From NCBI RefSeq assembly GCF_006345805.1, contig NC_043024.1:6200001-6264000 (forward strand): 64,000 nt of DNA, read 5' to 3'. The notes beneath the pieces were generated by a model. The model was not told the origin of the DNA. It saw only the letters and a program-made list of their open reading frames with translations, and made no database searches. The position numbers were made by a program, and so were the translations under genes. Source of the DNA: Octopus sinensis. Taxonomy: Eukaryota. Positions 10,160 through 63,463 of the stretch are shown here, piece by piece. Position 1 is the first letter of the stretch. Every line of letters begins with the position of its first letter.

Positions 10160-10258
10160 TCGCTGACGAAATCCAGCAGTACATCGTTTATTACATCTAT
10201 AAAAGTTACAATATTGATGATTCAAACATACTGTCGGATTGAAACATGTGTAGGATTC
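10160..10258 (+). ncRNA. Type I hammerhead-like motif (weak stem I)
   Basis: CTGACGA (10163-10169), stem II AATCCAGCAGTA/TACTGTCGGATT, GAAA (10241-10244), CATGT, GTA. A partial inverted copy lies at 9986-10060. Confidence 0.55.
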
Positions 10259-10675
10259 TTTTAATATCTTTTGTTATTTTGTTGATGTGGTTCCTTTTTA
10301 TTTGTTCTTATAGGCATCCCTTTTAATTGTACTACTTTTCCATTGTGATACAAATAAAATGAACCAAGCGTCTATTATTTTTCTTCTCCATTTCTTTTAT
10401 TGACTTTATATATATATTATATATATATATATATATATATATATATATATAATATATATATATATAATATATATATATATATATATACAAAGCAATATTA
10501 AATCTCTGAGTGAGAAGTAAACAGTAGCAGGTTGAGGCTAGAATGAGAACGATGATGTCTCCATTAGCCAGCTGGAGATCTCCTCATTGGGCTAAAAACA
10601 ACAGTAGCTTCATCCTCTATGGGACTGCCACATTTAGTTGCAATTATATTTTACAATATATATATATATATACAT

Positions 10676-11035
10676 AGTTGAAAAATATCGTTTATAAATA
10701 TACCATAAACAATAATAGAAAAATGGAGGAGAAAAAGATGCTGAATCAAAATTAGATTTAATACAGAATAGCATTCAATACATATACGCGTTTCAAAGGA
10801 CAATACAAGTATGTAAGAAAAAAATTATAACTATAGTAATTATAATTAATATAAAATTTACGCATTGTCATTTTCATCAGTGTGAGGAATTTATGCAGAG
10901 AAAAAACAATGAGAACTTAAGAAGGAAAAAACATCGATCAGACAAGACCGGCTGGTGTATTCAAGATATCTTCTCCTCCATTTTTCTATAATTGTTTATG
11001 GTATATCTATACCTATAACGATATTTTTCAACTAC
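10676..11035 (-). mobile_element. Inverted-repeat-flanked cassette with central hammerhead-like motif
   Basis: ~60-bp inverted arms (10676-10738 / 10968-11035). Minus strand reads CTGATGA (10880-10874), stem II AAATGACAATGCG/TGTATTGTCCTTT, GAAA, CGCG, TA. Confidence 0.6.
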
Positions 11036-11714
11036 AATTTTCATATTCTTATTACTTGCTTAGCTGTTTTTTTTATGAATATGATGAATCTTTATTAGAA
11101 ATCATTCTTCTCTCTTTTTGAATTGTTCTCTTTGAACTTAATTTTCCCCATATATATATATATATATTATATATATATATATATATATATATATTATATA
11201 TTATATATATATATATATATATAAATATATATATATTATACATAAATACATACATAACATATATATATATACATATACGTACATATACACAACACATATA
11301 AATATATTTTTTTTTCTCACTCACATATCACCATATATTGGGAAAACTAAATAAAAAAAGAAATAAAAATATAAAGAAATAGTTAAAATAAGCTATCATA
11401 CCCCACTATAACAATTTATAAATATATAAACATAATAAATATTACATATTTCTAGCAAAAAATGTCCATTAATATATATATATAATATATATATATATAT
11501 ATATATATATATATATAATATTTTATATAATATTATATAATATATATATAATATTTAACCTGCTTTGCAGGTTAAAGGACACCGTGACGGTGTCAAGCCT
11601 ATCTAGCACGTCGATGTTCGCCTGGGGCTAAATGACAACAGTAACCCCCACCACCCTGCCCTGTCCCAGCCATATTCAGATGGCTTTAGTCCCTTATGTA
11701 TATAATATTTATTT

Positions 11715-11850
11715 TACGTAAATTATTTTTGAACATACACTCTTAAAAAATTTTAGCCTGTAACCATGCGAGTAAATTATCTTTGCTAAATATAAGTAGA
11801 TTTCTAATATTTCATTAGTATTAATGAATAATAAATTTGACTGATTTTGC
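11715..11850 (+). mobile_element. Second copy of the Penelope-like 3' end, inside a fold-back
   Basis: Matches 8995-9120. Flanked by ~220-bp inverted arms at about 11265-11475 and 11984-12200. Confidence 0.7.
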
Positions 11851-13301
11851 ATTATTTATTTAGTTGATATTAATATATCATTAATGTATCTTTAGTACTA
11901 ATATTTATACAGATGATATAACTCAGAGAAGGGATAGTAATTATATGATATAAATTATTTTCTATATTATTTTTAATTATTTAATTAATGGACGTTTTTG
12001 GCTAGAAATATGTAGTATTTATGTTTATATATTTATAAATTGTATAGTGGGGGTATGATAGCTTATTTTAACTATTTTCTTTATATTTTTTTTCTTTTTT
12101 TATTTAGTTTTCCCAATATATGGTGATATGTGAGTGAGAAAAAATACATGTATATTTATATTTGCGTGTGTGTCTATGTACGTATATGTATATATATATG
12201 TCATGTATGTATGATTTATATATATATAACATATATATATATGTATATATATATATATATATTATATATATTATATATTATATATATATATATATATATA
12301 TATATATATATATATATATATATATATATATATATAGTTGGAATTTATAGGAAAACAAAGACCAAGACAGGTGTGTAAAACAACAAACAGGTGTTGATTA
12401 GTTTAACACTCGGGAAGGTGAGAAAGTTTTTCATGTTTCGAGCCTATGCTCTTCAACAGAAAGGAAGACAAGAAAATAAACAGAGAGAGAAAAAAAAGCT
12501 TTAGCGGCTATCTTTTATCTTCATGTTTATTTTTTTTTCCAAATGTTCATATTTTTTTTATCTATAAGTCTATATATTTTTTACTTTTAATTTTTATTTA
12601 TCCATATGTTTATATGTTTATATTTGTGGATATTTATCTACCTATTTGTGTATGTTCATATGATGGGTATATATGCATATAATTGTATATGTATAAGTTG
12701 TTTATGTGTGTGTATGTGTATATGTTGTGTATATTTCCATATAAATTTATGTGGGAATATCTATATGTATAAATATGTGTGTATGTATACATGTGTGTGT
12801 ATGGATGTGTGTGTGTATATATAAATATATATATATAATGTGTGTGTAAGGATATATATATACATATATATAAGTTCAGTAAATTTAGATTCAGTTGAAT
12901 ATGGTACTTAAGTTAAAGGCACCAGAATTTGGTATGGTATTATCTCTCTCTCTCTCTCTCTCTATATATATATATATATATATATATATATATGTGGATA
13001 TTTATGTATGCATTCAGGTATGTTATTGTTGGGTGTGTGTATACATAACTATTTATAGTTCATCAACAATTTTGCAATTTTAATAAAAAAATCCATATTA
13101 CTCTACCTTGGTATTCGAGTACTATTTTTTCACCTTGTTCTGCATTTGTGTGCTTTTCGTGTGTATCGATCTATCTATCTATCCATATCCATTATCCGTC
13201 CATCCATCCATATATATATATATATATATAATATATATATATATATATATATATATATATATATATATATATATATATATATATATATATATATATAATT
13301 G

Positions 13302-13753
13302 GGCTTAGTAAAATAAATTACTTTGCCACATACTGAACTTTCTAGAAATAGCAGCCAAAAAGTTTTTTTAGCCATTTCCACTACTTTAAGAAAAATTTCT
13401 CCAGATAATGTTTACTCAAAAAATAACTCACGAAGATATGGAGTAAAAACAGTAAAATATCACAAGTACAAAGATCATTTGAGAACGTCACGTTTCTAGA
13501 TAGCCAAATAAAACTCACCATTTCCTTCGTCAGCTCAACATTTCTTAATTTTGGATTTGAAAGCACTAAAAGAATGAACATACCCTCAGACGAACACGCT
13601 CAGACTGCCAGTACTCGCAAAATCAAAATGTACCTGCGAAGATTCATGTTCCTTCCCCTTCCCTTCTTAAAGTAGTGGAAATGGCTAAAAAACTTTTTGG
13701 CTGCTATTTCTAGAAAGTTCAGTATGTGGCAAAGTAATTTATTTTACTAAGCC
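13302..13753 (-). mobile_element. Inverted-repeat-flanked cassette with hammerhead, inserted in (TA)n
   Basis: Near-perfect ~90-bp inverted arms (13302-13390 / 13664-13753). Hammerhead at 13479-13538(-): TTGAG-CTGACGA-[stem II]-GAAA-CG-TGA-CG-TT-CTCAA. Confidence 0.75.
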
Positions 13754-61396: not shown

Positions 61397-62163
61397 ATAC
61401 TATAATCATAAATGATTATATATGAATTTTGAGATACCAGAAGGCACCAACTCAACTCAGTATCAGAGCGAGCTAGAATCCGCAACTGGTATCAACGAAT
61501 TCAATTTGTGAATGAAACGATTGTGTCAACAGCCCCTTCCCACCCGCGTGTAGCCAAAACAAGATGCTGTGGTCATCTACTGAGATAAAATATGGTTATC
61601 CGTAATAATGAAGGGTGAAATTATTAATTTGGAAAAATTATCAATTACACCAAGTAGTCTTCGGCATGTAAAAGCCTCATTCGAGGAAATTTAAGTAATA
61701 CTAAGCAATAAGGGTTTAGCAACGAGTTGCCTTACCACATACCACATGTTTTTACTGAGATCTCCCTTTTTAGTAGAAGAAATAGCTATAACCTTTGACT
61801 GCTATTTCTAAATCGGTATATGTGGTAAGGCAACTCGTTGCTAAACCCTTATTGCTTAGTATTACTTAAATTTCCTCGAATGAGGCTTTTACATGCGAAG
61901 ACTACTTGGTGTAATTGATAATTTTTCCAAATTAATTAATTCACCTGCATTATTACGGATAACCATATTTTATCTCAGTAGATGACCACAGCATCTTGTT
62001 TTGGCTACACGCGGGTGGAAGGGGCTGTTTGACACAATCGTTTCATTCACAAATTGAATTCGGTTGATACCAGTTGCGGATTCTAGCTCGCTCTGATACT
62101 GAGTTGAGTTGGTGCCTTCTGGTATCTCAAAATTCAATATATAATCATTTATGATTATAGTAT

Positions 62164-62268
62164 TCTACGCTGAAGAGAAAAGAAGTTCGGTAAGATAGAA
62201 TTATTTAATATTTATATTTAATTCTTATGCTTTCCTAAAAACTTGATTTCGAAACGTACGTCCGTGGA
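62164..62268 (+). ncRNA. Type I hammerhead ribozyme
   Basis: Stem I TCTACG/CGTGGA (6 bp, one G-U); CTGAAGA at 62170-62176; stem II closed by GAAA/TTTC; GAAA at 62251-62254; palindromic CGTACG; GTC cleavage triplet ending at 62262. Confidence 0.85.
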
Positions 62269-62760
62269 TAACTAAAAAAATGTATGATAGATTGCAGTCA
62301 ATTCATTCCTCTCTTACCTGTTTGTGTCTGCCCTTCCAAATGCTGTTTTTACTGAGATCTCCCTTTTTAGTAGAAGAAATAGCTATAACCCTTTGACTGC
62401 TATTTCTAAATTCGGTATGTGGTAAGGCAACTCGTTTGTAAACCTTATGCTTAGTATTACTTAAATTTTCCTCGAATGAGGCTTTTACATGCCGAAGACT
62501 ACTTGGTGTAATTGATAATTTTTCCAAATTAATTAATTTGCACCCTTCATTATTACGGAAACCATATTTTATCTCAGTAGATGACCACAGCATCTTGTTT
62601 TGGCTACACGCGGGTGGAAGGGGCTGTTGACACAATCGTTTCATTCACAAATTGAATTCGGTGATACCAGTTGCGGATTCTAGCTCGCTCTGATACTGAG
62701 TTGAGTTGGTGCCTTCTGGTATCTCAAAATTCAATATATAATCATTTATGATTATAGTAT

Positions 62761-62866
62761 TCTACGCTGAAGAGAAAAGAAGTTTCGGTAAGATAGAATT
62801 ATTTAATATTAATATTTAATTCTTATGCTTTCCTAAAAACTTGATTTCGAAACGTACGTCCGTGGA
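62761..62866 (+). ncRNA. Type I hammerhead ribozyme
   Basis: Same layout; CTGAAGA at 62767-62773, GAAA at 62849-62852, GTC ending at 62860. Confidence 0.85.
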
Positions 62867-63354
62867 TAACTAAAAAAATGTATGATAGATTGCAGTCAAT
62901 TCATTCTCTCTTACCTGTTTGTGTCTGCCTTCCAAATGCTGTTTTTACTGAGATCTCCCTTTTTAGTAGAAGAAATAGCTATAACCCTTTGACTGCTATT
63001 TCTAAATTCGGTATGTGGTAAGGCAACTCGTTTGTAAACCCTTATTGCTTAGTATTACTTAAATTTTCCTCGAATGAGGCTTTTACATGCCGAAGACTAC
63101 TTGGTGTAATTGATAATTTTTCCAAATTAATTAATTTCACCTTCATTATTACGGATAACCATATTTTATCTCAGTAGATGACCACAGCATCTTGTTTTGG
63201 CTACACGCGGGTGGGAGGGGCTGTTGACACAATCGTTTCATTCACAAATTGAATTCGGTGATACCAGTTGCGGATTCTAGCTCGCTCTGATACTGAGTTG
63301 AGTTGGCCTTCTGGTATCTCAAAATTCAATATATAATCATTTATGATTATAGTA

Positions 63355-63463
63355 TTCTAGCTGAGAGAGAAAAGAAGTTTCGGTAAGATAGAATTATTTA
63401 ATATTTAATATTTAATTCTTATGCTTTCCTAAAAACTTGATTTCGAAACGTACGTCGGGTGGA
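63355..63463 (+). ncRNA. Hammerhead copy with indels in core and stem I
   Basis: Reads TCTAG-CTGAGAGA...GAAACGTACGTC-GGGTGGA; either mutated or sequencing error. Confidence 0.55.

What the first reader, a model, noticed from the sequence alone, without database searches (positions are those of the whole stretch)
10160..63463. About 20 hammerhead cores in 64 kb, in several unrelated short elements tied to (TA)n tracts
Seen: CUGAnGA...GAAA...UH layouts, or recognisably decayed versions, at about 10163(+), 10874(-), 12436(-), 13479(-), 20030/20140, 23510(-), 32079(+), 33765(-), 40770(-), 42480(-), 46497(-), 47325(-), 47745(+), 48056(-), 56358(-), 57710(-), 59765(-), 60805(-), and four in the terminal array. 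Stem III is nearly always tiny and self-complementary (CGTACG, CGCG, CCGG, AACGTT, CATG, CTCnGAG). Most hosts are 100-600-bp islands directly flanked by (TA)n. Inference: a diverse ribozyme-bearing retroposon community that preferentially lands in TA microsatellites, at roughly one core per 3 kb here. Perhaps a third look catalytically plausible.
Basis: partly seen in the sequence, partly recalled or inferred. Interest (0 to 1): 0.75.

Follow-up and report, generated by a model that had tools for sequence, protein, structure and literature searches.

The report
Penelope retroelement ends carrying hammerhead variants
The motifs are real: they are the tail ends of a dozen or more families of jumping genes, likely all of the Penelope type, which carry a known small self-cutting-RNA motif and sit beside TA repeats, and five families share an altered catalytic letter that would likely change or slow cutting.

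Summary
All 23 listed cores are present, plus 3 missed ones. Eight pass a structural descriptor against 0-1 in shuffles. They belong to about 14 dispersed repeat families. Across families, stem I forms 38 of 42 pairs against 15.9 expected, and 3' ends abut (TA)n in 98 of 157 copies against 75 of 334 SINE/MITE ends.

This is a known kind: minimal type I hammerheads in the terminal repeats of Penelope-like elements (PLEs), plus one young 598-bp tandem retrozyme-like array. Family B is linked directly to RT/GIY-YIG-coding PLEs; for the other families the link is inferred from architecture.

Inserted copies span the cut site (0 of 71 incidental copies start at it), so the template RNA was likely uncut. 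Cleavage is untested.

The scan reported the same reading before on other DNA of this genome.

The parts
9985..10406 (.). Family E, two-armed element: core 10163-10252(+), decayed core of the inverted arm 9991-10080(-); family core canonical, stem III CAUAUG
10675..11034 (-). Family F end; core 10783-10880, canonical boxes, long stem II, stem III mutated in this copy
12337..12520 (-). Family B end; core 12432-12459, A6U as in the family, G17 in this copy
13300..13862 (.). Family G, two-armed element; core 13484-13533(-); 3' tail 70% like family D
14236..14420 (+).
19921..20241 (.). Family H, head-to-head palindrome; cores 20030-20059(-) and 20145-20173(+), U3-A8 pair and GCAA (A13C) as in the family
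23422..23589 (-). Family I end; core 23513-23547, canonical boxes, matches the family majority
31322..31938 (.). Two tandem two-armed fragments of the family D tail, without the core, between TA tracts
32000..32219 (+). Family J end; decayed core 32079-32112 (relatives in L071, L207, L255)
33665..33870 (-). Family A copy; core 33764-33790, U4C as in the family majority
40665..40988 (.). Family K, two-armed element; decayed cores 40767-40800(-) and 40842-40875(+); family core canonical
42387..42523 (-). Family B end; core 42480-42507, A6U
46450..46640 (-). Family L (old) fragment; core 46501-46572, canonical boxes
47218..47364 (-). Older family C copy; decayed core 47327-47356
47735..47937 (+). 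Family M copy; core 47753-47789 with a G3-C8 pair, 7-bp stem I, tail-to-tail with family A across one TA tract
47957..48163 (-). Family A copy; core 48060-48086, canonical U4 in this copy
56265..56408 (-). Young family C copy (6 other loci 100% identical over 132 nt); core 56362-56391, U4C
57609..57822 (-). Family A copy; core 57714-57740, canonical U4 in this copy
59588..59920 (-). Family N end; core 59764-59845, canonical boxes, stem III mutated in this copy (family CGAUCG)
60793..60822 (-). Decayed core with G17; resembles family C by eye; no genomic relative retrieved
61111..63749 (.). Family D array of 598-bp units with an inverted arm, TA tracts at both ends; cores 61298-61390(-), 62170-62262(+), 62767-62860(+), decayed 63361-63456(+)

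Best explanation
The cores lie in about 14 dispersed repeat families, each with a type I minimal hammerhead motif 90-300 nt before a fixed end that usually abuts (TA)n; one family is the terminal repeat of RT/GIY-YIG-coding Penelope-like elements, and the others are likely the same kind of end or non-coding derivatives that borrow a Penelope-type enzyme. Mechanism: (1, inferred from PMC8557442 and PMC11167929) the PLE endonuclease nicks TA-rich DNA. (2, fixed ends shown, cause inferred) reverse transcription starts inside the RNA at one of two sites downstream of the hammerhead, which gives a fixed 3' end and a second, inverted arm that lacks the tail. (3, shown as a pattern) copies run through the cut site, so the copied RNA was likely uncut or rejoined. 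(4, inferred) most copies stop early, leaving 130-400 bp islands; A, C and M also have a fixed 5' end and behave as short non-autonomous units, and D amplifies as tandem 598-bp units like a non-LTR retrozyme. (5, inferred from PMC4209133) the palindromic stem III would let two motifs in one tandem transcript cleave as a dimer, so lone copies are likely silent. Because cleavage is likely not needed for insertion, lineages with weakened cores can still spread.
For: Descriptor against shuffles. Genomic relatives for 12 searched families and incidental relatives for G and J. Covariation across 14 families: stem I 38 of 42 Watson-Crick pairs against 15.9 permuted (P 5e-5); pair 3-8 kept in 14 of 14 (12 C-G, 1 U-A, 1 G-C; P 0.005); stem III strictly palindromic in 10 of 14. 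Link to coding PLEs: 8 of 30 long B copies run upstream into a GIY-YIG domain with a CxxxxCxxC linker; 22 of 30 loci found with that domain (one is the query's own) have the B end on the same strand downstream; L391 and L396 hold two direct B repeats 4.3 kb apart around RT-EN frames. Another full PLE (L203) has 644-bp repeats 98.9% identical with a U3-A8 core near the end. Two-armed insertions with a tail on one arm: C, H, D, G, K, E. TA: 98 of 157 family 3' ends against 75 of 334 SINE/MITE ends (Fisher P 1.6e-17) and 5-8% of random positions. Cut site: 60 of 71 incidental copies span it and 0 of 71 start within 3 nt of it.
Against: Only family B is tied to a coding element; A, C, D, M and the rest have no open frame linked in the loci held. 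Pfam support for the B-linked frame is below the curated cut-offs (RVT_1 E 0.017, GIY-YIG E 0.032); its identification rests on motifs and tblastn to stronger PLE frames. No tree was built, so the clade is not fixed. TA adjacency is weak in old families (E 2 of 10, K 3 of 11, F 4 of 11) and one SINE also sits near TA (68 of 245), so part of the signal is general. Family copies are the top hits to the window copy, not a random draw. No cleavage or expression was shown.
Confidence: 0.88

Rival explanations
1. A community of hammerhead-bearing SINE-like retroposons of separate origin, not derived from PLE ends, moved by other retrotransposons.
For: A, C and M have fixed 5' and 3' ends and no linked open frame; the families share little primary sequence.
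Against: B is a PLE end and A shares its hammerhead and 3' flank with B. The two-armed, tail-on-one-side insertion is described as PLE structure (PMC8557442, passages read). No poly(A) tails were seen at the 3' ends.
Confidence: 0.08
2. For the variant cores only: they no longer cut at all and are kept as a folded handle for the PLE protein, or simply ride along.
For: Copies span the cut site. In PMC11167929 (section 3, part 2 read) catalytic mutants did not affect insertion in vitro. A6C drops Mg-dependent cleavage by orders of magnitude (PMC7151607, passages read). Young family C combines U4C with a mismatch at the base of stem II in most copies.
Against: In 67 B-lineage cores position 6 is U in 65 while position 7 takes all four bases (U 28, G 16, A 14, C 9) and the other core positions hold at 63-67 of 67 (the pattern fixed stem II and box 2, and copies are related). 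The 3-8 pair is kept through double changes in M and H. G3-C8 partly restores cleavage in the anole PLE (PMC11167929), and U4C supports a viroid in vivo (PMC3088659, passages read).
Confidence: 0.45
3. For family D only: the unit is cut to a monomer, circularised and reverse transcribed round the circle (retrozyme model), rather than copied from a linear tandem transcript.
For: Head-to-tail 598-bp units, 97-98% identical, in arrays on many contigs; canonical core in 23 of 23 copies with a 6-bp stem I and extended stem II.
Against: The unit is longer than the 150-450 bp reported (PMC7229834, passages read); no circle or cleavage end was observed; the array ends follow the PLE two-site pattern.
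Confidence: 0.5
4. Chance matches to a short motif in AT-rich DNA.
For: Box 1 alone is only mildly enriched (38 against 23 +/- 5, max 38 in shuffles); Rfam finds nothing at gathering score; the D core is not more stable than shuffles (z 0.2).
Against: Full-descriptor enrichment, family conservation and cross-family covariation.
Confidence: 0.01

Closest known systems
Minimal hammerheads (min-HHR) in pLTRs of metazoan Penelope-like elements (Cervera and de la Pena 2014, PMC4209133; parts 1-2 of 4 of the text and part 2 of 3 of supplementary file 2 read; supplementary file 1 not available)
   Same: Type I layout, short stem I, extra base after A9, tiny palindromic stem III, many sequence families per genome, mostly lone copies, pairs on opposite strands 100-700 bp apart, U3-A8 variant, molluscan examples.
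   Different: Family-wide A6U, U4C, G3-C8 and A13C cores were not in the parts read; several families have long stem II loops (50-80 nt) or a mismatch at 10.1-11.1.
Neptune/Nematis-type EN+ PLEs (as summarised in Craig et al. 2021, PMC8557442; 12 passages read)
   Same: C-terminal GIY-YIG with a CX2-5CxxC linker, (TA)n targets, inverted 5'-truncated arm, tail on one end.
   Different: Clade not tested by a tree; tails here reach 55 nt (C) to about 135 nt (D) against 30-40 bp described.
Metazoan non-LTR retrozymes (PMC7229834, passages read; bioRxiv 10.64898/2026.07.22.740005, part 1 of 5 read)
   Same: Family D: non-coding tandem units, one type I hammerhead each, low GC; proposed to be non-autonomous PLE derivatives.
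   Different: 598-bp unit; inverted arm and TA flanks; circular RNA not shown.
PAc (Poseidon) of the green anole (Frangieh et al. 2024, PMC11167929; passages and section 3 part 2 read)
   Same: Two fixed 3' ends downstream of the hammerhead, AT-rich targets, insertion from uncut RNA.
   Different: Different PLE clade; no biochemistry was done here.
PLE-associated small hammerhead variants of Lunse et al. (PMC5785218; text not held, seen only as a citation in PMC6765202)
   Same: By title and the review's summary: short stem III, PLE association, dimer cleavage.
   Different: Cannot be told; it may already list some of the core variants found here.

Membership tests
PLE minimal type I hammerhead | Core boxes CUGANGA / GAAA / UH around three helices, open end in stem I | tested here: met
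   Canonical majority in D, E, F, I, K, L, N; one or two fixed departures in A, B, C, H, M
PLE minimal type I hammerhead | Very short, self-complementary stem III | tested here: met
   Strictly palindromic in 10 of 14 families; B and K self-complementary through G-U, C and I with an unpaired centre
PLE minimal type I hammerhead | Compensatory changes across families | tested here: met
   Stem I 38 of 42, pair 3-8 14 of 14; 33 of 36 and 12 of 12 after merging related families
PLE minimal type I hammerhead | Self-cleavage as a dimer | not testable with these tools
   No assay; only contigs were available for RNA
Penelope-like element (EN+) | Terminal repeats flanking an RT plus GIY-YIG frame (family B) | tested here: met
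   Pfam scores weak
Penelope-like element (EN+) | Terminal repeats flanking an RT plus GIY-YIG frame (the other 13 families) | tested here: inconclusive
   No linked frame within 1.5 kb in the loci held; no walk was made for them
Penelope-like element (EN+) | Inverted truncated arm with the tail on one end | tested here: met
   C, D, G, H, K, E
Neptune/Nematis-type PLE | CX2-5CxxC linker before the endonuclease; (TA)n targets | tested here: met
   Linker visible in B-linked frames; TA enrichment
Neptune/Nematis-type PLE | RT phylogeny | not tested
   No reference set at hand
Non-LTR retrozyme (family D) | Non-coding tandem units with a type I hammerhead in consecutive units | tested here: met
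Non-LTR retrozyme (family D) | Unit of about 150-450 bp | tested here: not met
   598 bp
Non-LTR retrozyme (family D) | Abundant linear and circular monomer RNA | not testable with these tools
   No run on record as RNA; contigs only

The most novel reading that the evidence does not exclude
Whole PLE lineages in this genome run on non-canonical hammerhead cores that still cut under special conditions (PLE protein bound, or another metal ion): A6U with a free position 7 in a coding lineage, natural G3-C8, and U3-A8 with A13C. All four Watson-Crick pairs at 3-8 occur in one genome. The short fixed-length elements (A, C, M) are copies primed inside the upstream repeat and run to the RNA 5' end, so one mechanism yields SINE-like offspring.
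Probability: 0.3. Interest if true: 0.6.

Novelty: new variant of a known kind. Interest (0 to 1): 0.33.

Why it matters
The association of hammerheads, PLE ends and TA repeats is known, so the headline is ordinary. What is useful is the set of natural core variants fixed in large families. They bear on an open question, whether PLE hammerheads must cut at all, and give ready test substrates with natural controls from one genome. The density is also high: about 13 net descriptor hits in 400 kb would scale to roughly 10^5 per genome, a rough figure from small numbers. Rfam misses all of them.

Tried and rejected
Rfam: no match at gathering score; the 150 E-value rows shown of 451 were microsatellite matches to miRNA-type models, rejected.

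CpG decay as the source of the canonical U4 in two window copies of family A: CpG transitions 17 of 754 against 20 of 1638 elsewhere, too weak, and older relatives also have U4. Left open.

Expression: no RNA holder listed. Four runs laid were contigs of guessed type; two bridge the D unit junction, which cannot separate tandem DNA, tandem RNA and circles. No evidence either way.

Linking families to the first PLE found (L061/L201 family) and to the Pfam GIY-YIG hits: no same-strand link; window families only sat beside those PLE ends.

Folding energy of the D core: not better than shuffles, though stems I and II form as predicted.

Four ORF-linked cores from elsewhere (3 U-A, 1 A-U) were found with a pattern that demands a 3-8 pair, so they are left out of the covariation statistic; one of them (L247) was also mis-parsed.

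TA counts for D and G include junctions inside arrays and were dropped; J and L were not in that recount.

Literature: searches showed no report of family-wide A6U, A13C or natural G3-C8 in PLE hammerheads, but the most relevant paper (PMC5785218) is not held and supplementary file 1 of PMC4209133 could not be seen. A repeat annotation of an octopus (PMC13282606, passages read) lists Penelope-like elements and has no occurrence of 'ribozyme' in its main text.
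Full report
Setting. The window is G000:C28:6200001-6264000 in a 2.72-Gb animal genome, AT-rich and full of microsatellites. Earlier scan notes call the animal a cephalopod; I did not test that.

Observation. All 23 listed cores were located and three more found. A canonical type I descriptor (exact boxes, stems I and II of 3 bp or more) gives 5 hits against a mean of 0.125 in 40 block shuffles and 0 in the reversed window. 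Allowing the family variants gives 8 against 0-1 in 20 shuffles. Forty fixed-position 10-kb stretches give 15 against 1-4 in four shuffles, so such motifs are common genome-wide and about three times denser here. Rfam reports nothing at gathering score.

Families. Searches of the own genome returned 40 scored candidates each for A, B, C, E, F, H, I, K, L, M and N and 38 for D; 12-30 loci per family were fetched. G and J have incidental relatives. The site at 60805 has none. Ages differ: C has copies 100% identical on other contigs and D arrays are 97-98% identical, while E, K and L are at 72-87%.

Core letters in fetched copies, window copy excluded: canonical box 1 in D 23 of 23, N 21 of 23, F 10 of 11, E 9 of 11, K 9 of 11, L 9 of 13 and I 10 of 11. 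U4C (with the rest of box 1 intact) in A 24 of 29 and C 17 of 18. A6U in B 18 of 19. G3-C8 in M 19 of 19. U3-A8 in H (7 of 9 exact) with GCAA in place of GAAA (8 of 9). Over all held loci, 67 B-lineage cores have U6 in 65, while position 7 takes all four bases.

Covariation. With one majority or natural copy per family, stem I has 38 of 42 Watson-Crick pairs against 15.9 when 3' strands are dealt out among families (P 5e-5), and pair 3-8 is kept in 14 of 14 (P 0.005). After merging related families (A/B, D/G) the figures are 33 of 36 and 12 of 12 (P 0.007). Stem III is strictly palindromic in 10 of 14. This matches the published min-HHR consensus. Coding PLEs elsewhere in the genome carry U3-A8 (L203, L236, L242) and A3-U8 (L247) cores near their ends; these were found with a pattern that demands the pair and are not counted.

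TA flanks. (TA)3 or longer begins within 8 nt of the fixed 3' end in 98 of 157 copies of ten families, against 75 of 334 SINE and MITE ends and 5-8% of random positions; Fisher P 1.6e-17. The signal is strongest in A, C and H (27 of 28, 17 of 18, 9 of 9) and weak in old families (E 2 of 10, K 3 of 11). One SINE also lies near TA (68 of 245), so the bias is not exclusive. PMC8557442 names (TA)n as preferred PLE targets.

Link to coding PLEs. A decayed PLE frame turned up in the random sample (L061; GIY-YIG E 2.3e-6) and led to a full element, L203, with 644-bp repeats and a hammerhead near the repeat end; that family is not in the window. For family B, long copies extend through a pyrimidine-rich region into a GIY-YIG domain with a cysteine linker in 8 of 30 loci. 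Searching with that domain, 22 of 30 loci (one is the query's own) have the B end downstream on the same strand. L391 and L396 have two direct B repeats about 4.3 kb apart around RT-EN frames, both with the A6U core. These long relatives match the window's B copies at 70-84% over about 150 nt. Pfam scores for this frame are weak. No such link was found for the other families, and none was walked.

Insertion anatomy. C, D, G, H, K and E show two arms head to head, one ending at the full 3' end and one short of it, as described for PLEs and explained in vitro by two internal start sites of reverse transcription. Among 71 incidental copies of six families, 60 span the predicted cut site and none starts within 3 nt of it; among 191 copies from the families' own searches, 2 do. 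So the copied RNA was likely uncut or rejoined. In the anole PLE, catalytic mutants did not affect insertion and cleavage needed the protein. A, C and M copies also share a 5' end, with unrelated or TA flanks beyond it.

Family D. The terminal array has 598-bp units, an inverted arm and TA at both ends; similar arrays lie on many contigs. The core is canonical with a 6-bp stem I and an extended stem II. It works like a non-LTR retrozyme but its unit is longer than the reported range, and no RNA circle was shown.

How it likely works. Shown: motifs, families, covariation, fixed ends, TA enrichment, the PLE link for B, copies spanning the cut site. Inferred: nicking of TA by the PLE endonuclease, internal priming, dimer cleavage in tandem transcripts, silence of lone copies, trans-mobilisation of the short families. 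Open: whether the variant cores cut. U4C lowers activity but supports a viroid, and U3-A8 is a known natural swap; A6C nearly abolishes Mg-dependent cleavage but not Mn-dependent cleavage; G3-C8 partly rescues in vitro.

Verdict. The system is known. The family-wide core variants are the part not found in the searches, but the key paper on PLE hammerhead variants could not be read. Earlier notes of this scan reach the same reading on other DNA of this genome; they are not independent support.

Noticed in passing
window 28753-29492 and 50409-50640: A 230-256 bp element with TTAA-bounded inverted ends, in 2.8 tandem copies; 9 BLAST hits in the 400-kb sample. MITE-like; used as a control end.
   Followed up: partly
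window 14994-15453 and 15920-16427: An 89% identical duplication on either side of the 100-N gap; possibly an assembly artefact.
   Followed up: no
window 17713-18674 and 35257-35652: A repeat with inverted ends; the larger copy has a short frame near 18320-18500 that reads by eye like a DNA-transposase N-terminus, the smaller looks internally deleted. Label recalled, not tested.
   Followed up: no
window 11271-11471 / 11986-12189, 47428-47722, 17253-17503: Further inverted repeats with no hammerhead core called; the first pair lies next to TA tracts and may be coreless two-armed PLE ends.
   Followed up: no
window 977-1278 and 46708-47007: A 302-bp repeat, 96.7% identical, in opposite orientation 45 kb apart.
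   Followed up: no
L203 (G000:C10:15309501-15319500) and L156-L185: An abundant PLE family (14,903 first-look candidates for its endonuclease, relatives included) with a 481-aa upstream frame of no clear Pfam family and a 3' region of more than 1.2 kb of TG/TA simple sequence; it may generate microsatellite-like DNA.
   Followed up: partly
L247, about 310 nt after the endonuclease: A hammerhead with an A3-U8 pair, 6-bp stem I and CCGG stem III in one locus.
   Followed up: no
window 47937-47957; L229, L235, L258, L215: Ends of different families stack in one TA tract, often tail to tail.
   Followed up: partly
window 62266: Relatives of family D in contigs of two other coded organisms have A here, which turns a G-U pair of stem I into A-U.
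   Followed up: no
window 10488-10640 and 13086-13155: Coreless 3' fragments resembling families J and C.
   Followed up: partly
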